The notes beneath the pieces were generated by a model that made no database searches, was not told the DNA's origin, and was given only the letters and a program-made list of their open reading frames with translations. This document shows positions 54,816 through 64,000 of a stretch of 64,000 nucleotides of DNA, piece after piece (position 1 is the stretch's first letter; every line of letters starts with the position of its first letter). This stretch comes from an uncultured Verrucomicrobiae bacterium (GTDB taxonomy: Bacteria; Verrucomicrobiota; Verrucomicrobiia; Chthoniobacterales; Chthoniobacteraceae). Position numbers and translations under genes: made by a program. The stretch spans positions 192,001-256,000 of the forward strand of contig CAVYKI010000003.1 of the NCBI GenBank assembly GCA_963769025.1. Reading direction: 5' to 3'.

Positions 54816-55945
54816 ATGCCCGTTGTCGCAAAAGGTCTCGAAGGAATCATCGCCAACTCCACCCGTCTCTCCGACGTGCTCGGAGACGTCGGCCAGCTCA
54901 TCTACGCGGGCTACGACATCAATGAACTCGCGGGAAAAGTGTCCTTCGAGGAGGTCATCCACCTCCTGTGGTACGGCGAACTCCCGAACTGGCGCCAGCT
55001 CAACACGCTGACCGAGGAGCTGCGCAGCCACCGCGAGCTTCCCCGTGGCGTCATCGATTTCCTCACCTCGGCCCCGAAGGACGCGGGACCCGATGGATGT
55101 GATCCGCACCGCGATCTCGATGCTCGGCCTCTACGATCACCATCTCGATGACACCTCGGTGGATCGCAATCGCGAGCGCGCCATCAGCATCACCGCGCGG
55201 ATTTCCGTCATCGCCGCGTACTACCACCGCGCGCGCATGGGCAAGAAGCTCCTCCCCATCCGCAAGGATCTCGGCGAAGCCGCGCACTTCCTCTACCTGC
55301 TCACCGGCGAAGAGCCGAGCGCCGAGGCCGCGCAGACGCTCGACGTCGCCTACGTGCTCCACGCCGACCACGGCATGAACGCCTCAACGTTCAGCGCGCG
55401 CGTCACCATCGCGACGCTGACGCGACATGTATTCCGCCATCACCTCCGCGATCGGCACGCTGAAAGGCCCGCTGCACGGCGGCGCGAACGAAGGCGTCAT
55501 CCACATGCTCCAGGAGATCGGCAGCGAGGCGAATGTGGACGCATGGGTGGACAACGCGCTCGCGCAGAAAAAGAAGATCATGGGCATCGGCCACCGCGTC
55601 TACAAGGTGCTCGACCCGCGCGCGCCGCACCTCCGCGCGATGGCCATCAAGCTCACGGAAAAGCACGGCGAGCCGAAATGGCTGCGCATGAGCGAGCGCA
55701 TCGCGACGATCATGAAGGAGAAGAAGGATCTGAATGCGAACGTCGATTTCTACAGCGCCACGGTCTATTACTCGCTCGGCCTGCCGACGGACATGTTCAC
55801 GCCCATCTTCGCCATCTCGCGCACCGCGGGCTGGACCGGCCACGTCCTCGAACAGCTCGCCGACAACCGCCTCTACCGCCCGCTCAGCGAATACACCGGC
55901 CCGGCCGTCGGCAAAAAGGTCGTCCCGCTCGCGATGCGGGAATAG
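54816..55945 (+). CDS. gltA: Citrate synthase; frameshifts near 55085 and 55421
   Basis: KGLEG, LHADHGMNASTFSAR, LKGPLHGGANE, MGIGHRVYK, ANVDFYS. Confidence 0.94.
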
Positions 55946-55960: not shown

Positions 55961-57100
55961 CTATTCCGCGTCGGCGCCCTTCCCGTCCTTCTCCTTTTCC
56001 TTCCGCTCCTCGCGGCCGCGCTCGATGGCCTTCTTGCCATCCGGCTTCGGAAATTTCGCGAGCTTCCCGCGGACGATCTCCGCGCGCAGCGTGTCGCGCT
56101 CCTCAGCCTGCAGTTTTTGCTGCGAACTTTTCTGCAGGTGCGCCGGCTGCGTCTCCATGAAGAGCTGATCCACCAGCAGCCGCCCTTCCTCCGGGAAAAA
56201 GCCGAGGTCCGTGCCGAGCTTCAGGCAGCTCAGCAAATTCAGCGCTTCCTTGCTCGCCATGCTGTGCGCGTGGCGGAGGATTCCGTACGCGCGCCCGATG
56301 TTGTCGAGCAGCAGCGTCGCCCGCTTGTCGAGGAGGCTCGCCCGCGCGTTCTGCTCGTGCTGGAGGATCTGCTCGATGACCTTGTTCAGCCGCATGAGGA
56401 TCTCGTCCTCCTTTTCGCCGAGCGTCGTCTGGTTGGAGATCTGGAAAAGATTCCCGAGCGCCTCCGTGCCCTCGCCGTAAAGCCCGCGCACGGCGAGCCC
56501 GACCTTGTTCACCGCGCCGATGACCTGGTTGATCTGCTCGCTCAGCACGAGGCCCGGCAGATGCATCATCGCGCTCGCGCGCATCCCGGTGCCGACATTC
56601 GTCGGGCACGCGGTGAGAAATCCGTACTGCTGGTGAAATGCGAAATCGAGCCGCTCGCCGAGCGCCGTGTCCACCTTGTCCACGAGCTTGAAGACGTTCC
56701 TCAGCTGCAGCCCGCTGCGGATGCCCTGGATGCGCAGGTGGTCCTCCTCGTTGATCATCACCGAAAGCGTCTGCTTGCGGTTCATCACCACCGCCGAGCC
56801 GATGCCCTTCGCCGCGTGCTCGCGCGAGACGAGGTGCCGCTCCACGAGCACCTGCTTTTCCAGCGCGCTGAGATCCTGCGAATACGCCGAATACGCATCC
56901 GCCATCTCCGGCAGCGACTCCACCTGCGGCTTCACGCATTCGAGCACCGCGATGCGGTCCGCCTTCTTCGCCCAGCCGGGGAATGAAAAGTTGCGCAGGT
57001 TCCGCGCGAGCCGCACGCGGCTGCTGATGACGATGTGGCTCTGCGGCCCGTCGCCGCTCAGCCACTCGCCGGATTCCGTGAGGATGTTGTGCAGCGCCAT
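55961..57100 (-). CDS. mcsB: Protein-arginine kinase
   Basis: ISSRVRLARNL, LVERHLVS, MINEEDHLR, CPTNVGTGMRAS, VRGLYGEG, QISNQTTLG. Confidence 0.95.
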   Translation of the reverse strand: MALHNILTESGEWLSGDGPQSHIVISSRVRLARNLRNFSFPGWAKKADRIAVLECVKPQVESLPEMADAYSAYSQDLSALEKQVLVERHLVSREHAAKGIGSAVVMNRKQTLSVMINEEDHLRIQGIRSGLQLRNVFKLVDKVDTALGERLDFAFHQQYGFLTACPTNVGTGMRASAMMHLPGLVLSEQINQVIGAVNKVGLAVRGLYGEGTEALGNLFQISNQTTLGEKEDEILMRLNKVIEQILQHEQNARASLLDKRATLLLDNIGRAYGILRHAHSMASKEALNLLSCLKLGTDLGFFPEEGRLLVDQLFMETQPAHLQKSSQQKLQAEERDTLRAEIVRGKLAKFPKPDGKKAIERGREERKEKEKDGKGADAE

Positions 57101-57102
57101 GG

Positions 57103-57600
57103 CTAGGTCCCTCCGGCGTTGCCCGGCTCGAACTGCTTGATCTTGTCGCGCAGTTCCGCGGCCGTCTCGTATTTCTCGTCGTCCACCGCCTTGCGCAGTT
57201 CGCGCTGCAGCCGCTTCAGTTCCTCCGCGTGCTGGCGCGCCTTCAGCAGACGCTGCGGCACCTTGCCGACGTGCGTCGTGCCCTTGTGCATGCCCTTCAG
57301 CATCGCCTCGAGCCCCTCGGCGAAGACCTCGTAGCAATTCGAGCAGCCAAAGCGCCCCGTCTTCTTGAAATCCGCCTGGCTGAACCCGCACATCGGGCAC
57401 TTCTGCCCCACGCCGCTGCGCTCCATCTCCTCCGACGCGCCGAGCCCGAGCAGCATGTCCGCGAGCGCAAATCCCTTCGGATCCGTCACGCCCTTCTCCT
57501 TCGAGCAGCCGTCGCACAGGTTCACCTTCTGCATCTTCCCATCCACGATCTGGGTGAGAAATACCGTGGCTGTCTTCTGTTTGCAGACGTCGCAGTTCAT
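57103..57600 (-). CDS. mcsA: McsA (zinc finger plus UvrB/UvrC motif) kinase activator
   Basis: Four CxxC pairs, HVGKVP, EKYETAAELRDKI. Confidence 0.93.
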   Translation of the reverse strand: MNCDVCKQKTATVFLTQIVDGKMQKVNLCDGCSKEKGVTDPKGFALADMLLGLGASEEMERSGVGQKCPMCGFSQADFKKTGRFGCSNCYEVFAEGLEAMLKGMHKGTTHVGKVPQRLLKARQHAEELKRLQRELRKAVDDEKYETAAELRDKIKQFEPGNAGGT

Positions 57601-57673: not shown

Positions 57674-58558
57674 CTATTCGTAAACCGGCGTCCCCGTCGA
57701 GTGCGCGATCTCGCGGAATTTCGCGACCACGCGCTTCGTGATCGGCCCCGGCTTCCCGTCGCCGAGCACCCGCTGATCCAGCTTCACCGCCGCGATGACC
57801 TCCGCCGCCGTGCCGGTGAGGAAGCACTCGTCCGCCGTGTAAATGTCGTGCCGCGTGAGATCGCGCTCGCGCAGCGGGATGCCGAGCGCCTCCGCGATTT
57901 CAAACACCACGCGCCGCGTGATTCCATCCAGCGCCCCCGCGCTCAGCGGCGGCGTGGAGATCGCACCGTCGCGAATCACGAAGATGTTGTCGCCCGTGCA
58001 TTCCGCCACGAGCCCCTGGTCGTTCAGCATCAGCCCTTCCTCCGCGCCCGCCTGGATCGCCTCCACCTTCGCCATGATGTTGTTGAGGTAGTTCAGCGAC
58101 TTCACCTGCGGCGGCAGGATGTCGTGCCGCGGACGCCGCGTCGCCACCGTCGCCATCACCAGCCCGTTTTCATAAGCGCTCTCGGGATAGAGCTGGATGC
58201 TCGCCGCGATGATGAACACGGACGGCTTCGGGCACTTGTAAGGCGAAAGCCCCATCGGCCCCACGCCACGCGTCACCACCGTGCGGATGTAACCATCGCG
58301 AAGCCCGTTCGCCTTCACCGTCTCCACCGTCGCGCGCATCATCTCCTCCGGCGTCATCGGGATGTTCAGCAGCAGCGCCTTCGCGCTGTCAAAAATCCGC
58401 CGCGTGTGCTCCTCGAGCCGGAAGACGCGCCCATTGTAAAACCGGATCCCCTCAAAGCACCCGTCGCCATAAAGCAGCCCATGGTCGAACACGGAAACCT
58501 TCGCCTGCGATTCAGGCACAATCTTTCCGTCGAGGTAAATGAGCAGTTCTTTGGTCAT
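57674..58558 (-). CDS. ilvE: Branched-chain amino acid aminotransferase
   Basis: DHGLLYGDGCFEGIR, VKSLNYLNN, ECTGDNIF, LDGITR, DECFLTGTAAEV. Confidence 0.95.
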   Translation of the reverse strand: MTKELLIYLDGKIVPESQAKVSVFDHGLLYGDGCFEGIRFYNGRVFRLEEHTRRIFDSAKALLLNIPMTPEEMMRATVETVKANGLRDGYIRTVVTRGVGPMGLSPYKCPKPSVFIIAASIQLYPESAYENGLVMATVATRRPRHDILPPQVKSLNYLNNIMAKVEAIQAGAEEGLMLNDQGLVAECTGDNIFVIRDGAISTPPLSAGALDGITRRVVFEIAEALGIPLRERDLTRHDIYTADECFLTGTAAEVIAAVKLDQRVLGDGKPGPITKRVVAKFREIAHSTGTPVYE

Positions 58559-58752
58559 GCGGGTCGCGGACGGTGGCAGCGTGCGCGCCGAATTCAAGCG
58601 GCGACATGCAAAACGCCCGAAAGACTGCCGCCCCGTTACGCTCCCAAAGCAACGCGCCCCGGCAGGATCGACGCCGGCCGCTTCACGTGGCCGAACGATT
58701 GACCCACCCCCTCCCCTTTGCTTATCCACTCCCGGCGGCTCCCCCTTTCCGC

Positions 58753-61605
58753 ATGGCCACTCCCCAGACCGAAATCCTCATCACAGTCTCCGGCACCGAA
58801 CACGGCCGCCACATCCTTCCGCCCGGCGTTTACGTCCTCGGCCGCAACCCCGACTGCGACATCCGCGTGGACGCCGACCTCGTCTCCCGCCGGCACGCGC
58901 AGCTCACGCTCAATTTCGACAACGCCCTCATCGAAGACCTCGGCAGCAGCAACGGCACGCTCGTGAACGGCAAGCCCGTCGCCGGGAACACGCGGCTGTG
59001 GCCCAACCAGAAAATCCAGATCGGCGCCGCCACCATCGAGCTGCACCGGCTGAAGACCGAGTCCACCCCCGACATGTCGCTCGCCCCGACCGCCGAGGTC
59101 GTGCAGCGCGTGCTGCCGGAGGAGTTCCTGCGGGAGAAAAAATACGACATCGGCGGAGTCGTCGCGCAGGGCGGCATGGGTGCCATCCTCGACGCCAAGG
59201 AAGCCACCATCGGCCGCACCGTCGCCATGAAGGTGATGCTCGACTCGAATTCCCCCGACGACCTCCTGCGCTTCATCCACGAGGCCAAGGTCACCGGCCA
59301 GCTCGACCATCCCAACATCGTCCCCGTCTATGAGCTGAGCGTGGATGAAAACGGCCAGGTCTTCTACACCATGAAAATGGTGCGCGGCATCACCTTGAAA
59401 AAGGTGATCGAACTGCTCGCCGCGGGCACCGAGGCCACGGTGAAAAAGTATCCCGCTCCCCGTGCTGCTCACCGTCTTCCAGAAGGTCTGCGACGCGCTC
59501 GCCTTTGCGCACAGCAGGCACGTCATCCACCGCGACCTGAAGCCGGAAAATATCATGCTCGGCGACTTCGGCAGCGTGCTCGTCATGGACTGGGGGCTGG
59601 CGAAGATCCTCGGCAAAAAGGACGCGCCTTCCGCGGGCAACGTCGCATCGGCGCGCGACTCCGCGCCTGCCTTGGATGCCACGATGGCCGGCACCATCAT
59701 GGGCACGCCGCAATACATGGCCCCCGAGCAGGCGCGCGGCGAGGTGGAGACGATGGACCACCGCGCGGACATCTACGCGCTGGGCGCGATCCTCTACACC
59801 ATCCTCGCCCTGCGCCCGCCCGTGGAGGGCACCGACGCCTGGGACATCGTCGGCAAAGTCGGCCGCGGCGAGATCGACCCCTTGGTAGGGCCGCCTCGCC
59901 GAGGCGGCCCACTTCCCGCCTCGTCCTCTCACGCAAACGCGAAAGCAAGCGTGGGCGCGCCCGGCGGTCGCGCCCTACCCCGCAGCGTCATCCCCGAGTC
60001 GCTCGCCGCCGTGGTGAAGAAGGCCATGGCCCTCCACCCGTCCGCGCGCTACCGCAGCGTCGAGGAGCTGCAGGCCGACATCCTCGCCTACCAGAACGGC
60101 TTCGCCACCGGCGCGGAGCGGGCCGGCTGGTTCAAGCGCGCCAGCCTCGCCATCAAGCGCAACAAGGCCGCCTCCATCGGCGTCGCCGCGGTGCTGCTCA
60201 TCGGCGGCGGGTTCGGCACGAAGGCCCTCCTCGAAGGCCGCCGCGCCGAGCAGGCCCTCGCCGACTTGAAAAAGAGCGCCCCCGCGCTGCTCCAGCTCGC
60301 CGAGAGCGAAGCCGACTCCCAGCGCTTCGACAGCGCGCTGGGAGAAGCTCGACGCCGCCCTCGCGCTGGACCCCGCGCTCCACCGCGCCCGCTGGCAGCG
60401 CGCGTGGGTGCTCCTCGCCCTGGAGCGCTGGAGCGAAGCCGCCGACGCCCTGCGCCTCGCGCAACAACACGACCCGGCCGGCGCGAAGCTCGCCAGCATC
60501 CTCCCCGCCGTGGAGAAAGTCGCCGCCGCCCCCGAGGCCGGGCGGTGGAAAAGCGACGCCGCCCGCGAGGTCTTCGCGCATCTGCAAACCGTCGCAGCCA
60601 CCGGCCCCGCGCTCGCCTTCTCGGGCAAGCTCAAGCTCGGTGCCGAGGAGCGGCGCAAGCTCGCCGACCAGCGCCTGCTCGCGGCCTTGGGTAAAGGGAA
60701 CTACACCAAATTCAGCGTAGACAATGATGGCCTTGTTGCCGTCGACGTGAATGGCAGACCGCTCCGGTCTCTTGAAGCCTTTCGAGGGCTTGCCAATCGA
60801 CAATCTAAATGCCAGCGTACCACACTCATTACCGACCTGGAGCCGTTGCGCGGGATGCGCCTCCAAGTGCTGTCCATCGAAGCTTGCAAGGCATCACGGA
60901 CCTTACACCACTTCGCGGAATGCCACTGCGCTCGCTGAACCTTGAATGCTACTCCTGTCCGCGATCTTTCACCGCTCGTTGGCATGAAGCTGTCAAAGCT
61001 CAACGCGTTCAACAGCCAGGTCGCCGATCTCACGCCGCTGGCCGGAATGCCACTCACGATTCTGGATCTCTCAGGCACGCCGGTTACTCGAATCGAAGCA
61101 CTCCGCGGCATGCCACTCACCAACTTGAAGGTCAGTTCGCGCGTTGTGGATTACTCCCCGTTGAAAGGCGCACCTCTCCAGGCCCTCTTCATCCAGGGGT
61201 GCAAACATCCCGATCTCTCCTTCGCCAAAGGAATGCCGCTACGCTCACTTTTCGCTCCCAGTTCAAGCTTTTCTAACATTGAGGGGCTGCGTGGGCTGCC
61301 GCTCGAAGACCTCAATTTGTCCTACACACCCGTCACCGACCTCTCCCCATTGGCAGGGCGCCGTTGAAAGATTGAACCTTCGCGGCTGCAGGAAGCTCAC
61401 CGATTACACCCCGGTGCTCACGCTGCCCCGGCTCGAACGGCTGCATTGCGACGTGCTGCCCGCGGCCCTGCTGCCGCTGCGCGAGAGCGCGACCTTGCAG
61501 AGCATCGAAGCCGACGCCTACCCCGGCGAAGGCTCCCAAGGCGCGCGCCCCGTCGCCGATTTCTGGCGCGCCTACGACGCCCACCAGGCGGCGCAGAAGA
61601 AGTGA
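58753..61605 (+). CDS. FHA domain - Ser/Thr protein kinase - TM - TPR-like - LRR protein (~950 aa after repairing several frameshifts)
   Basis: FHA (LGR, VSRRHA, DLGSSNGT); kinase (QGGMG, VAMK, HRDLKPEN, DWG, YMAPE); hydrophobic segment; about ten ~21-aa repeats of type V.DLSPL.GMPL..L.L. Pieces lie in successive frames. Confidence 0.85.
59884..59979. repeat. GTAG-type REP doublet (REPIN-like), in frame inside the kinase domain
   Basis: GGTAGGGCCGCCTCGCCGAGGCGGCCC (59884-59910) and, inverted, GGTAGGGCGCGACCGCCGGGCGCGCCC (59953-59979); total length 96 bp. Confidence 0.75.
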
Positions 61606-61646
61606 GCCCGGCTTGCCTTTGCGAGCGTGAACGGTAGGTTTCGCCC

Positions 61647-61856
61647 ATGAGCTTCAGTGAGATTCTCGATGAATTGCCGCATCTCAGTCCGCAGGAGCGG
61701 CTGCGTGTGGCGGAGCAGGCGCTGGCGCTGGATGCGCTCTCCGCAGAGGATGAATCAGTCGTCCGGGAGCGGCTTGCCGAACATGACCGGGCACCGGGGA
61801 CGGCGATTCCTCTGGATGATTTCCTCGCGCAGTTGCGCACGCGCCACGGGCTGTGA
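61647..61856 (+). CDS. Addiction-module antitoxin
   Basis: 69 aa, LSPQERL...VRERLAE...AIPLDDF pattern; GTGA overlap with the toxin gene. Confidence 0.8.
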   Translation: MSFSEILDELPHLSPQERLRVAEQALALDALSAEDESVVRERLAEHDRAPGTAIPLDDFLAQLRTRHGL

Positions 61857-62161
61857 GCTGGCGTGTGGTGGTGCGTCCGGAGGTCCGTGTGGATCTCGAC
61901 GAAGCAGCAGCGTGGTATGATGGCCAGCGCGCCGGGCTGGGAAGGGAGTTTGTCGCGGCAGTGGCGGGCGTTTTTCCTGAGTTGTCGGAGAACCCGTTTC
62001 TGAATTCGCGACGGCATCCCACGCGGCACATCCGCTGGCGCTACCCCGAGCGCTTCCCGTATCGGATCATCTATCGTGTGGATGAAGCAGACAATGCCGT
62101 GGTGATCGTGGCCGTCCTGCACGCCGCAAGACATGACCGCCGCTGGCGTGAGCGGCTGTAA
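61853..62161 (+). CDS. RelE/ParE family toxin
   Basis: DLDEAAAWYD..RAGLGREF, RFPYRIIY, IVAVLHAAR. Confidence 0.9.
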   Translation: MSWRVVVRPEVRVDLDEAAAWYDGQRAGLGREFVAAVAGVFPELSENPFLNSRRHPTRHIRWRYPERFPYRIIYRVDEADNAVVIVAVLHAARHDRRWRERL

Positions 62162-62268
62162 CGAATTCGCCGAACACTCCACGGGCGCCCACGCTGCTCC
62201 GGCTCGAACGGCTGCATTGCGGCGTGCTGCCCCGTCGAAGGCCCAACGCGCGCGCGCCGACGCAGCGT

Positions 62269-62964
62269 TCAGCCGGCCACGGGCGCCGCTCCGTCCACGA
62301 TGAGGCCGTCGCGCATTTCCAGCGTGCGGTCGCCGCGCCGGGCGAGCGCGCGGTCGTGCGTCACCACCACGAGCGTTTTCTTTTCGGCACGCACGAGATT
62401 CAGCAGCAGTTCCACGATGCTGCCGCCAGTGGCGGAGTCGAGATTGCCCGTCGGTTCGTCGGCGAAGATGACCTCGGGATCGTTGATGAGCGCGCGCGCG
62501 ATGGCCACGCGCTGCTGTTCGCCGCCGCTGAGTTCCGCGGGCAGATGCTGCAGCCGTTCGCCGAGCCCCACGCGCCCCAGCGCGGCCTCCGCCGCGGCCT
62601 GCCGCCCGTTGCCGCCGATGAGCGCGGGGAGCATCACATTTTCCAGCGCCGTGAGCTCCGGCAGCAGGTGATAGGCTTGGAAAATGAAGCCGAACTTCGT
62701 GTTCCGCAGCTTCGCGAGATTCGCCTCGGACTGCGAATACACGTCGGTGTCGCCAAATTTCACGACGCCTTTCTCGGGACGTTCGAGGCCGGCGAGCGTG
62801 TAGAGCAGCGTGCTTTTTCCAGCGCCGCTCGCGCCGCAGAGGAAGAGCGATTCGCCCGGCGTGATGTCGAGCGTGATGCCGCGCAGCACCTCGATGGTGC
62901 GTTCGCCCATCTTGAACGAGCGGAAAAGTTCGCGTGCGGAAATGTGGGCGGCTGGCTGGTTCAT
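62269..62964 (-). CDS. ABC transporter ATP-binding protein (LolD-like)
   Basis: GASGAGKST, GFIFQAYHLLPELTALENV, LSGGEQQRVAIARAL, ADEPTGNLD, VTHD. Confidence 0.92.
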   Translation of the reverse strand: MNQPAAHISARELFRSFKMGERTIEVLRGITLDITPGESLFLCGASGAGKSTLLYTLAGLERPEKGVVKFGDTDVYSQSEANLAKLRNTKFGFIFQAYHLLPELTALENVMLPALIGGNGRQAAAEAALGRVGLGERLQHLPAELSGGEQQRVAIARALINDPEVIFADEPTGNLDSATGGSIVELLLNLVRAEKKTLVVVTHDRALARRGDRTLEMRDGLIVDGAAPVAG

Positions 62965-63126
62965 CGTGCGGCGCGCACCGTAAGCGCCGCCGCGCGCAGC
63001 GGCAACCCCTGTGATGTGCGAGCGAGCTGGAACGAAGTGCGGAAAGAATCATGCACTCGCGCCGAAGCGTCTCATCCGGAGTCGCGAAATGTGCCCCGGT
63101 CGGAAGCCCCGACCGACAGGCCGTGG

Positions 63127-64000
63127 CTATTGCAGCTTCGGAATGCCCTTGAGCGCGTCCTGAATCTGCTTTTGCACCTGCGCCTCGATGTCGTCACCGA
63201 TGGCGTCCGGGGCCTTCTTTGCGGCGGGATCCGGCGCACCGTCGCCGCCGCTCCAGTCGAGGCCTTCGGTGAAAATCTTCACCACGCTGCCTGCCGCCGC
63301 GGGCTGGACCATGATCGTCAGCTTCGCATCGCCCTGCTCGCGCTTGAGGATCGCACTCTTTTTCCCCATCAGATTCCCCGCGCCGTCCTTCCAGCCCTGC
63401 GCTTTCAGGTTCGCCGAAAACTCCTTTGCAACCGTCTCGACCGGCGACGCGCTGGAAAACTGGATCTGCTTCACGAGCGCTTTGAATTCCACATCGGTCG
63501 CGTCCTTCGGGAAGGGCAGCTTCCGCGCGGGGATGAGCGGACCGGCCGCAGCCTTGGGCGCCTTGATCGCCGGTTCGCGCGGTTCGTTCGCAGCCGGCTT
63601 TGGCGCCGCCGCAGGAGCGTTGCGCAGCTTCGCCGGCAGGGGCGCGGCGAATGTCAGTTCCACCTCCCACTTTTCGCCAAACGTATCGAGTTCCTTCCCC
63701 GTGCTGACACGCCCGCTCACATTCCCGCCCGCGATCTTAAAATCGACCATCTTGATCTCGCCGAGCGAGTTGAACCCCTGCTTCTCGTGCGCGCTGTGGG
63801 CCACCTGGCAGCCGAAAATCCCGCCATCGTGAAACACGCGCAGGATCAGCGCGCTGCCGAGCTTCCCGAACACCGCGTCGAACCCGGGCTTCTTCGCCTT
63901 CGCAGGATCCTTCTCCGTGAAAATCAGCGAGATCGCCTCCTTGTCGTTGAACGGCTCGTGTTCCTCCACCGTCACGAACTTGATCGCCGCGTTCTTGCCG
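63127..64000 (-). CDS. Hypothetical protein (5' end outside window)
   Basis: Frame is open to the window edge; normal codon usage; Pro/Ala linker between domains. Confidence 0.75.
   Translation of the reverse strand, partial: GKNAAIKFVTVEEHEPFNDKEAISLIFTEKDPAKAKKPGFDAVFGKLGSALILRVFHDGGIFGCQVAHSAHEKQGFNSLGEIKMVDFKIAGGNVSGRVSTGKELDTFGEKWEVELTFAAPLPAKLRNAPAAAPKPAANEPREPAIKAPKAAAGPLIPARKLPFPKDATDVEFKALVKQIQFSSASPVETVAKEFSANLKAQGWKDGAGNLMGKKSAILKREQGDAKLTIMVQPAAAGSVVKIFTEGLDWSGGDGAPDPAAKKAPDAIGDDIEAQVQKQIQDALKGIPKLQ

What the first reader, a model, noticed from the sequence alone, without database searches (positions are those of the whole stretch)
58753..62260. Receptor-like FHA-kinase-TM-LRR locus with signs of ectodomain exchange
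Seen: cytoplasmic-type FHA and Hanks kinase domains, a hydrophobic segment, then TPR-like and LRR regions. The LRR block differs in composition, a decayed copy of the gene's 3' end lies downstream, and a TA pair sits between. Inference: a bacterial analogue of LRR receptor kinases whose sensor end is replaced by recombination at conserved flanks, with the TA pair stabilising the incoming segment or acting as an effector. This would be a diversifying surveillance system.
Basis: partly seen in the sequence, partly recalled or inferred. Interest (0 to 1): 0.75.

Follow-up and report, generated by a model that had tools for sequence, protein, structure and literature searches.

The report
Mosaic bacterial LRR receptor kinase gene
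A soil or freshwater Verrucomicrobium carries a membrane receptor kinase with an outer leucine-rich-repeat sensor, one of a large gene family whose sensor halves are reshuffled between copies by recombination at conserved stretches; its toxin-antitoxin neighbour looks like a passenger.

Summary
Window 58753-61605 (+) encodes one protein: FHA, Hanks kinase, one membrane helix, a helical TPR-like stalk, an internalin-like LRR solenoid and a conserved tail. A ParE-type TA pair follows (61647-62161), then a 75-nt decayed copy of the gene's own 3' end (62184-62258).

The roughly 9 frameshifts are most likely assembly errors. rpoB of the same genome is in 9 pieces.

The gene, TA pair and remnant form a 3.66-kb insertion (58605-62261) between lolD and ilvE, which are adjacent in 4 relatives.

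Exchange of the sensor half is supported:
- Kinase and ectodomain trees conflict (AU p from 1e-39 to 0.014; one window-specific test gave 0.06).
- Against its nearest ectodomain relative, dS is 0.13-0.15 in two flanks and about 1.0 in the LRR block and kinase.
- A metagenome contig has the same flanks around a different 670-nt LRR block.
- Positional orthologues in two congeners have unrelated ectodomains.
- Orphan 3' ends lie just behind three other family genes or contigs.

No evidence shows the TA pair to be part of a system, and no dedicated diversity-generating machinery was found. LRR dN/dS is about 0.28. I read it as a new variant of a known kind.

The parts
58605..62261 (.). 3.66-kb insertion (upstream region, kinase gene, TA pair, 3'-end remnant) between the lolD stop and the ilvE 5' leader
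   Evidence: In G005, G003, G015 and G011 homology to the window ends at 58598-58609 and resumes at 62262-62306. lolD and ilvE are adjacent there.
58753..61605 (+). Receptor-like Ser/Thr kinase gene, read through about 9 single-base indels. Pieces: 58753-59451, 59453-60343, 60345-60785, 60787-60813, 60816-60887, 60890-60946, 60948-61352, 61354-61602; stop codon 61603-61605
   Evidence: Three-frame reading. Frameshift-aware alignment to intact relatives. Intact relatives of 890-940 aa have the same domain order.
58831..59025 (+). FHA domain (residues 27-91)
   Evidence: PF00498, 69.5 bits against a cut-off of 20.7. The GR, SxxH and NG motifs are visible in the translation.
59152..60100 (+). Hanks-type kinase domain, with one indel near 59452
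   Evidence: PF00069, 33.0 bits (N-lobe piece) and 80.8 bits (C-lobe piece). The VAMK lysine, HRDLKPEN, DWG (in place of DFG) and APE are visible.
60176..60232 (+). Single predicted membrane helix (residues 476-494 of the read-through protein)
   Evidence: Highest Kyte-Doolittle 19-residue window, mean 1.8.
60251..60640 (+). Juxtamembrane outer helical (TPR-like) segment; conserved left flank and recombination zone
   Evidence: 90-98% nt identity to G022:C268 and to L111 gene 2; dS 0.13. Covered at 90% identity or more by contigs of 4 of 4 metagenome runs laid. Helices 1-157 in the model.
60791..61330 (+). Variable LRR block (units of about 22 residues), GC 0.57; holds 5 of the 7 frame switches placed (by-eye reading about 6 of 9 indels)
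   Evidence: LRR_4. dS 1.0 and dN 0.28 against G022. Little or no cover at 90% identity in 4 metagenome runs. One contig replaces 671 nt with 670 other letters.
61375..61602 (+). Last LRR plus conserved C-terminal tail (FW..YDA motif); conserved right flank
   Evidence: 92-98% nt identity to G022 and L111 gene 2; dS 0.147. Copies of it occur as orphans in other genomes.
61647..61856 (+). Putative antitoxin (69 aa)
   Evidence: PF09720, 19 bits, and TIGR02574, 24.1 bits, both below cut-off. Its stop overlaps the start of the toxin gene.
61853..62161 (+). ParE/RelE-type toxin (102 aa)
   Evidence: PF05016, 42.1 bits against a cut-off of 23. No NCBIfam match. 80% aa identical pair at G015:C74 in another context.
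62184..62258 (+). Decayed, truncated copy of the gene's 3' end (orphan), ending 3 nt before the end of the insertion
   Evidence: 92% identity over 49 nt, then 75% over 32 nt, with a 56-nt gap. Also 92% identical to the G045:C6 orphan.

Best explanation
The locus encodes one functional-type receptor Ser/Thr kinase. The FHA and kinase domains are inside the cell. One helix spans the membrane. A helical stalk and an internalin-like LRR horseshoe are outside.

By inference from the domain families, a ligand bound by the LRR surface changes kinase activity. The FHA domain reads the resulting phospho-threonines.

The gene belongs to a large paralogue family in this Verrucomicrobiota genus. Family genes are mosaics: homologous recombination between copies (tandem, dispersed, and from other strains) swaps the outer half or the LRR block. 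The exchange happens at three conserved nucleotide stretches: the end of the kinase with the membrane helix, the first outer helices, and the last LRR with the tail.

Replacement from the 5' side leaves the old 3' end as an orphan just behind the new stop codon. In this genome the copy arrived as, or grew into, a 3.66-kb insertion between lolD and ilvE.

The ParE-type TA cassette came in with the incoming tail, or landed between the stop codon and the orphan. It is a passenger. The frameshifts are assembly errors.

Shown: the anatomy, the insertion, the mosaic structure and the orphans. Inferred: signalling, the direction and order of the exchanges, and the passenger status of the TA pair.
For: Anatomy.

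Assembly errors:
- rpoB is in 9 frame pieces.
- Citrate synthase is in 3 pieces.
- The C12 paralogue needs 7 or more frame switches in 1.4 kb.
- A related metagenome contig lacks the extra base at 60343.

Insertion: 4 of 16 fetched ilvE loci have lolD directly adjacent. Homology to the window breaks at 58598-58609 and 62262-62306.

Incongruence:
- The best kinase match is G015_C126 (68%), whose ectodomain is 29% identical. The best ectodomain match is G022_C268 (77%), whose kinase is 57% identical. G012_C34 is 43% identical in the ectodomain and 29% in the kinase.
- The ectodomain alignment rejects G012_C95+G022 (p 1.4e-39) and G012_C94+G014_C4+G004_C183 (p 7e-4). The kinase alignment rejects G012_C95+G012_C94 (p 3.6e-12).
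- The 32-row kinase alignment rejects one clade of the 7 carriers of this ectodomain type (p 0.0012). It also rejects window+G022+G007_C51 (p 0.014).

Sharp breakpoints:
- G022_C268 against G007_C51 is 79-100% identical (mostly 90% or more) over nt 46-1260 and about 40% after that.
- G012_C94 against G012_C95, in one genome, is below 60% in much of the cytoplasmic part (windows reach 63-80% locally) and 92-99% at nt 1565-1900.

Window against G022 (dS by segment): FHA 1.28, kinase 0.82, first outer helices 0.13, LRR 1.0, C-terminus 0.147. The differences between segments give chi-square p 1e-19 and 1e-8. The housekeeping region mcsA-ilvE of G022 is only 78% identical to the window. The flanks are therefore more alike than the genomes.

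Alternative allele: an X1 contig holds 60488-60706 (10 differences) and 61378-61472 (0 differences), with 670 other letters in place of 671.

Positional orthologues: G000:C12 and G045:C6 share the downstream flank at 88% but have unrelated 3' halves.

Orphans directly behind a resident stop codon: G045:C6 (96%), L112 (91%), and an X1 contig that runs from 61603 back to 61434.
Against: - In the 7-row set the kinase alignment does not reject window+G022 as sisters (p 0.06). The p 0.014 test used a group named after the tree had been seen.
- Most relatives are short-read MAG contigs. Assemblers can join paralogues wrongly at shared repeats, so some mosaics (G012_C94/95, G022 against G007) could be partly artefacts.
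- The direction of exchange is unresolved. The flanks may have been homogenised rather than the LRR replaced.
- Stronger constraint on the flanks would give the same picture at protein level. Only the dS figures argue against that, and they rest on one pair with sequencing errors in the window.
- Five of the 7 frame switches placed (by eye, about 6 of 9 indels) lie in the 570-nt LRR block, so real decay there is not excluded.
- No reads of this organism were found.
- No expression or binding data exist.
Confidence: 0.7

Rival explanations
1. It is a decaying pseudogene in a recently inserted piece of DNA. The frameshifts are real, the remnant and the TA pair are debris, and nothing here works.
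For: There are about 9 indels, 5 of the 7 frame switches within 570 nt of the LRR block. The locus is an insertion absent from 4 relatives. Family debris exists elsewhere: an FHA-to-tail fusion in G045:C386 and orphan fragments.
Against: rpoB has 8 frame breaks in 3.7 kb and citrate synthase has 2. The C12 paralogue has an even higher density. No stop codon lies inside any frame piece (one search printed 0 stops in 954 residues). Several indels sit in short runs of one base (seen by eye). A related contig lacks the extra base at 60343.
Confidence: 0.12
2. It is an ordinary paralogue family without exchange. The pattern comes from uneven selection (conserved stalk and tail, fast LRR) together with ancient domain shuffling.
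For: At protein level the first outer helices are the best conserved part in 10 of 10 further homologues tested, and the LRR is among the least. LRR dN/dS is 0.28, which indicates purifying selection. The architecture is common: 102 of the 120 best hits carry a kinase domain, nearly all with LRR_4.
Against: Synonymous divergence differs 7-8 fold between neighbouring segments. Breakpoints are sharp, including one between near-identical kinases with unrelated outer halves. Positional orthologues have unrelated 3' halves. Orphan 3' ends lie behind resident stop codons. AU tests reject congruence.
Confidence: 0.1
3. It is a dedicated diversifying surveillance system. LRR cassettes are exchanged on purpose, and the TA pair acts as stabiliser or effector.
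For: Exchange at conserved flanks is real. The junction between tail and TA is conserved at 79% in G019. In G011 tail fragments flank an antitoxin-like ORF. The LRR module is also joined to TIR domains in P0068 and P0112.
Against: tblastn with this TA pair over all fetched loci found it beside a family gene only in the window. The TA pair sits in unrelated contexts in G015, G042, G018 and G002. There is no second copy of the LRR block in the genome to serve as a template, and no long inverted repeats. The orphans hold only the conserved end, not variable LRR units, and their edges are ragged.
Confidence: 0.08

Closest known systems
Bacterial transmembrane Hanks-type Ser/Thr kinases with extracytoplasmic sensor domains (PknB/PrkC with PASTA, PknD with a beta-propeller; named from my own knowledge)
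   Same: A kinase inside the cell, a single membrane helix and a C-terminal outer sensor domain. The Pkinase match and catalytic motifs are present.
   Different: The sensor is a TPR-like stalk plus an internalin-type LRR, and there is an N-terminal FHA domain. A 2005 survey (PMC1262709, passages read) mentions one LRR-bearing kinase in Pseudomonas aeruginosa and FHA-kinases in cyanobacteria. In the passages I read it did not mention this combination or its recombination.
Plant LRR receptor-like kinases and R-gene clusters
   Same: An outer LRR and an inner Ser/Thr kinase joined by one helix. A large paralogue family with tandem copies and chimeric genes.
   Different: The domain order is reversed: the kinase is N-terminal and there is no signal peptide. 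The LRR class is internalin/SDS22-like with about 22 residues per unit. Common descent was not tested. PMC3268121 (passages read) searched 884 bacterial genomes for the plant-type order.
Polymorphic toxin loci (Rhs, CDI) with displaced orphan C-terminal ends
   Same: A new 3' part replaces the old one at a conserved stretch. The old end stays as an orphan just downstream, and a small gene pair travels with the new end. For the general scheme I saw only the abstract of PMC3482391, in the listing.
   Different: The exchanged part is a binding domain, not a toxin. The orphans carry only the conserved end. The TA pair is not an immunity gene for the exchanged part.
Listeria internalins, Roco LRR domain
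   Same: The fold of the LRR solenoid. InlA matches with TM 0.50-0.53, rmsd 2.2-3.0 A over about 260 residues and 23-25% identity.
   Different: Here the LRR is the outer domain of a membrane kinase, not a surface-anchored invasin or a cytoplasmic GTPase partner.

Membership tests
Hanks-type (eukaryote-like) Ser/Thr protein kinase, PF00069 | Profile match above the curated cut-off | tested here: met
   33.0 and 80.8 bits on the two frame pieces against a cut-off of 31.7. Intact relatives score 109-117 bits.
Hanks-type (eukaryote-like) Ser/Thr protein kinase, PF00069 | Catalytic residues: ATP-binding Lys, HRD Asp, DFG Asp, APE | tested here: met
   VAMK, HRDLKPEN, DWG at the DFG place, and APE were read in the translation. 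The alignment to the DFG position was done by eye.
FHA domain, PF00498 | Profile match and phospho-threonine-binding residues (GR, SxxH, NG) | tested here: met
   69.5 bits against a cut-off of 20.7. The motifs are seen. The motif list is as given in PMC1262709.
Leucine-rich repeat, internalin/SDS22-like class | LRR profile match and a solenoid fold with units of about 22 residues | tested here: met
   LRR_4, 31.6 bits against a cut-off of 27. The model of the relative's ectodomain has about 12 strands at 21-22 residue spacing. Foldseek matches InlA and Roco at E 1e-13 to 1e-14. The model is of the relative, not of the window protein.
Plant-type LRR receptor kinase | Order: signal peptide, LRR, membrane helix, kinase | tested here: not met
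   The order here is FHA, kinase, helix, LRR.
Type II toxin-antitoxin pair, ParDE/RelE-like | Toxin profile match | tested here: met
   PF05016, 42.1 bits against a cut-off of 23. No NCBIfam match.
Type II toxin-antitoxin pair, ParDE/RelE-like | Upstream small antitoxin gene with an overlapping stop and start | tested here: inconclusive
   A 69-aa ORF ends at 61856 and the toxin starts at 61853. Its matches (PF09720, 19 bits; TIGR02574, 24.1 bits) are below their cut-offs.
Polymorphic toxin system (Rhs/CDI type) | Variable C-terminal toxin domain with a cognate immunity gene | tested here: not met
   The variable part is LRR. No toxin domain was found in the gene.
Polymorphic toxin system (Rhs/CDI type) | Displaced orphan 3' ends downstream of the main gene | tested here: met
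   Window 62184-62258, G045:C6, L112 and an X1 contig.
Diversity-generating retroelement target | A template repeat copy of the variable region, and a reverse transcriptase nearby | tested here: not met
   No second copy of 60650-61330 was found in the own genome at DNA level. A reverse transcriptase was not searched for.
Shufflon or invertible-segment switch | Inverted repeats flanking alternative 3' segments, and a site-specific recombinase | tested here: not met
   The longest inverted repeats in 58000-63200 are 30 nt or less and 71-93% complementary, with no pattern. No recombinase ORF was seen.

The most novel reading that the evidence does not exclude
PVC bacteria keep a population-wide pool of interchangeable LRR sensor blocks for their receptor kinases. 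The conserved nucleotide flanks act as landing pads, so a cell can pick up a new recognition specificity by transformation and homologous recombination. This would parallel R-gene and receptor-kinase diversification in plants and C-terminal swapping in polymorphic toxins. The orphan ends are the scars, and small TA cassettes ride along. The targets would be variable outside molecules such as phage, predator or neighbour surface proteins.
Probability: 0.3. Interest if true: 0.8.

Novelty: new variant of a known kind. Interest (0 to 1): 0.58.

Why it matters
Kinase-plus-LRR membrane proteins are numerous in Verrucomicrobiota and Planctomycetota. A search with the ectodomain found 2413 proteins at E 1e-10 or better among the 8000 candidates scored. 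Four literature searches turned up no study of them in the library held.

If the outer LRR half is exchanged between copies and strains at fixed flanks, these bacteria have a cheap way to change what their kinases recognise. That makes the family a candidate recognition system for variable partners. It also offers a natural set of chimeras for asking how an LRR ectodomain controls a bacterial kinase.

The work also gives a practical warning. In this genome, frameshifts are assembly noise and should not be read as gene decay.

Tried and rejected
1. Synteny of the closest kinase homologues (G015:C126, G003:C4, G014:C11) with the window. None of the window's neighbours lies beside them, so they are not positional orthologues.

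2. The ilvE upstream site as a general hot spot for this family. Among 12 further ilvE loci, only G004 has a distant kinase there. Rejected.

3. The 3'-end fragments as a defined mobile element. Their edges are ragged: starts run from 61376 to 61537, and ends cluster at 61537-61550 and 61603-61607. I read them as scars. The four copies in G011:C111 lie beside no kinase gene and remain unexplained.

4. An RNA family or terminator that would explain the nucleotide conservation. The only Rfam match is below its gathering score (ctRNA, E 0.1). Terminator-like sites are no more frequent than in shuffled sequence, 4 against a mean of 3.9.

5. Reads of the organism, to check the indels. No run holds more than 0.13 of the sampled words. 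The four runs laid cover only conserved parts. The uncovered parts are not evidence of anything.

6. A diversity-generating retroelement or a shufflon.

The pieces were then found from coordinates and by an alignment routine guided by stored proteins.

8. One search failed because a stop codon lay in the chosen range; I repeated it with other coordinates. One search failed on a search term and was reworded.

Full report
**What is there**

On the + strand, 58753-61605 reads as one long gene if the frame is changed about 9 times by one base. Pfam finds the following on the frame pieces:
- FHA, 69.5 bits
- Pkinase, 33.0 and 80.8 bits on two pieces
- LRR_4, 31.6 bits

The strongest hydrophobic stretch is residues 476-494 of the read-through protein, about 60176-60232.

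Intact relatives of 890-940 residues in other genomes of the genus have the same order: FHA, kinase, helix, weak TPR matches, LRR_4, and a conserved tail with an FW..YDA motif.

An AlphaFold2 model of the nearest intact ectodomain was built from 8 aligned sequences (pLDDT 88.7, pTM 0.76). It shows nine helices followed by a solenoid of about 12 short strands. Foldseek places the solenoid with the Roco LRR and internalin A. For InlA the figures are E 1e-13, TM about 0.5, rmsd 2.2-3.0 A and 23-25% identity.

The kinase keeps its catalytic motifs and the FHA domain keeps GR, SxxH and NG (read). Because FHA and kinase must be cytoplasmic, the LRR is outside. This is an inference.

**Downstream of the gene**

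A 69-aa ORF (61647-61856) overlaps a 102-aa ParE-type toxin gene (61853-62161). The toxin scores 42.1 bits on PF05016. The antitoxin matches are below their cut-offs.

Then comes a decayed copy of the gene's own end. 62184-62232 is 92% identical to 61413-61461. 62227-62258 is 75% identical to 61518-61549, with 56 nt missing between them.

**The frameshifts**

- rpoB of this genome is found in 9 pieces in different frames.
- Citrate synthase in the window is in 3 pieces.
- The paralogue on contig C12 needs at least 7 switches in 1.4 kb.
- The genome has 13 contigs but only 83% marker completeness.
- Several indels in the gene sit in short runs of one base (seen by eye).
- A related metagenome contig lacks the extra base at 60343.

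I conclude that the breaks are assembly errors. One caveat remains: 5 of the 7 frame switches that one search placed (by eye about 6 of 9 indels) lie in the 570-nt LRR block. No reads of the organism were available.

**The locus is an insertion**

The mcsA-ilvE region was found in 30 of 30 genomes of the genus. I fetched 16 of those loci.

In 4 of the 16 (G015, G003, G005, G011), lolD lies directly next to ilvE. In those four, homology to the window stops at 58598-58609 and resumes at 62262-62306.

So 58605-62261 is extra in this genome and lies on the opposite strand. It holds 148 nt of upstream sequence, the kinase gene, the TA pair and the remnant. The remnant ends 3 nt before the right edge. 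I saw no clear target duplication. The other 12 loci have other neighbours, and only one has a distant kinase.

**A large family, with modules in different combinations**

The C-lobe-to-helix piece finds 1-18 matches per genome in 24 of 24 congeners at E 1e-20 or better.

The window's type of ectodomain occurs in 8 genes of 6 of 30 genomes. These carry three kinds of inner part:
- FHA-kinase
- kinase without FHA
- cyclase-kinase

Ranked against the window protein, the two halves disagree:

| Partner | Kinase identity | Ectodomain identity |
|---|---|---|
| G015_C126 | 68% | 29% |
| G000_C12 | 68% | 29% |
| G022_C268 | 57% | 77% |
| G012_C34 | 29% | 43% |

**Trees**

In the 32-row kinase tree the 7 carriers of this ectodomain type need 5 changes. 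The kinase of G022_C268 is almost identical to that of G007_C51, whose ectodomain is unrelated.

AU tests gave the following:

| Alignment | Group tested as one clade | p-AU |
|---|---|---|
| Ectodomain | G012_C95 + G022 | 1.4e-39 |
| Ectodomain | G012_C94 + G014_C4 + G004_C183 | 7e-4 |
| Kinase (7 rows) | G012_C95 + G012_C94 | 3.6e-12 |
| Kinase (7 rows) | window + G022 | 0.06 |
| Kinase (32 rows) | all 7 carriers | 0.0012 |
| Kinase (32 rows) | window + G022 + G007_C51 | 0.014 |

The 0.06 result does not reject window+G022 as sisters. The group in the last row was named after the tree had been seen.

**Breakpoints and synonymous divergence**

Nucleotide identity in 90-nt windows shows sharp steps:
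- G022_C268 against G007_C51: 79-100% (mostly 90% or more) over nt 46-1260, then about 40%.
- G012_C94 against G012_C95, in the same genome: below 60% in much of the inner part (some windows 63-80%), and 92-99% at nt 1565-1900.
- Window against its C12 paralogue: up to 93% until about 60230, then about 40%.
- Window against G022 and against L111 gene 2: 90-98% at 60256-60640 and 61375-61540, but 58-82% in the LRR block and the kinase.

For window against G022 the codon figures are:

| Segment | dS | dN |
|---|---|---|
| FHA | 1.28 | 0.549 |
| Kinase | 0.82 | 0.321 |
| First outer helices | 0.13 | 0.05 |
| LRR | 1.0 | 0.28 |
| C-terminus | 0.147 | 0.108 |

The segment differences give chi-square p of 1e-19 and 1e-8.

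The mcsA-ilvE region of G022 is only 78% identical to the window. The odd feature is therefore that the two flanks are much more alike than the genomes are. That points to recent transfer or conversion of the flanks, or to replacement of the block between them. The direction is open.

The low GC of the LRR block (0.57, GC3 0.65) is shared by G022 and other members. It is a family trait.

**Evidence from outside the genomes**

No run holds the organism. In 4 of 4 runs laid at 90% likeness, contigs cover the kinase core, 60336-60707 and 61328-61575, but hardly any of the LRR block.
- One 984-nt contig carries 60488-60706 (10 differences) and 61378-61472 (0 differences), with 670 other letters in place of 671.
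- Another contig runs from 61603 back to 61434.

At protein level, 10 of 10 further homologues show the first outer helices as the best conserved part (58-92%). The LRR is at 44-67%.

**Orphans and in-place replacement**

Copies of the last 60-190 nt of the gene occur in several settings:
- Right behind the stop codon of a different family gene in G045:C6 (96% identical to the window) and in L112 (91%).
- With this TA pair in G019. The tail-TA junction is 79% identical over 61554-61965.
- As four fragments around an antitoxin-like ORF in G011:C111, with no kinase gene nearby.
- In a few other intergenic places.

If the TA cassette (61610-62161, delimited by homology to TA loci) is removed in thought, the window's remnant would follow the stop codon by a few bases, as in G045:C6.

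G000:C12 and G045:C6 are positional orthologues. Their downstream flank is 88% identical, but their 3' halves are unrelated, and G045 also holds an orphan of a third type.

Tandem copies with near-identical 5' ends (G007:C51, L111) give an obvious substrate for unequal recombination.

**The TA pair**

tblastn over all fetched loci finds this pair beside a family gene only in the window, and beside the orphan tail in G019. In G015, G042, G018 and G002 it lies in unrelated contexts, once next to another TA pair.

I therefore read it as a mobile cassette that rode in with the tail or landed behind the stop codon. That it helps the insertion persist is plausible but untested.

**What it is not**

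- There is no second copy of the LRR block in the genome.
- There are no meaningful inverted repeats.
- No known RNA family matches, and there is no excess of terminators.
- LRR dN/dS is about 0.28.

I therefore see no evidence for dedicated diversity-generating machinery.

**Caveats**

Most relatives are short-read MAG contigs, and assemblers can switch between paralogues at shared repeats. The window's own mosaic is less exposed to this if, as its error pattern suggests, it comes from long reads; that is an inference. The same arrangement of flanks and LRR block in three separate assemblies (window, G022, L111) also argues against an artefact.

**Taxon and literature**

Record titles of three related loci name Verrucomicrobiota MAGs.

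I read passages of a 2005 survey (PMC1262709). It lists an LRR-bearing kinase in Pseudomonas aeruginosa and FHA-kinases in cyanobacteria.

I also read passages of a 2011 paper (PMC3268121). It searched 884 bacterial genomes for plant-type LRR kinases.

Searches found no paper on these Verrucomicrobial proteins or on their recombination. The library is not complete.

**Verdict**

The gene is a receptor-type LRR kinase. Exchange at conserved flanks is real at family level and very likely for this copy. The TA pair looks like a passenger, and a purposeful surveillance system is not shown.

Noticed in passing
window 54816-55945: Citrate synthase is split over three reading frames. This is the same indel problem as in rpoB of this genome, so gene calls in this assembly will be fragmented.
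   Followed up: partly
L047 about 1724-1950 (G015:C35): A palindromic insert of about 218 nt, resembling a miniature transposable element, lies in the lolD-ilvE spacer. It is flanked by an 11-nt direct repeat and sits at the same spot where the window has its 3.66-kb insertion.
   Followed up: no
L083 1853-2416 (G045:C386): An FHA fragment is fused in frame to the family's last few tail codons, with another 3'-end fragment just downstream. It looks like a family gene reduced by a large internal deletion.
   Followed up: no
L085 3387-4614 (G011:C111): Four closely spaced fragments of the family's 3' end and an antitoxin-like small ORF lie between purH and an oxidoreductase gene, with no kinase gene nearby. 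This is not explained by simple displacement.
   Followed up: partly
P0068, P0112: Proteins that combine TIR, FHA, an FGE-sulfatase domain and LRR_4 share this LRR module. The module is thus also joined to immune-type signalling domains.
   Followed up: no
L025/L109 (G007:C51) and L111: Tandem arrays of two to three family genes whose first 150 nt are about 91% identical. These are a ready substrate for unequal recombination.
   Followed up: partly
window 55961-57600 (- strand): McsB-like protein arginine kinase and McsA-like genes lie next to ilvE. This neighbourhood is conserved across the genus (30 of 30 genomes matched the mcsA-ilvE stretch).
   Followed up: no
G000:C12:433880-436131: The paralogue has a much shorter outer part: helices, about one and a half LRR units, and the tail. 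It also has an even higher density of frame breaks than the window gene.
   Followed up: partly
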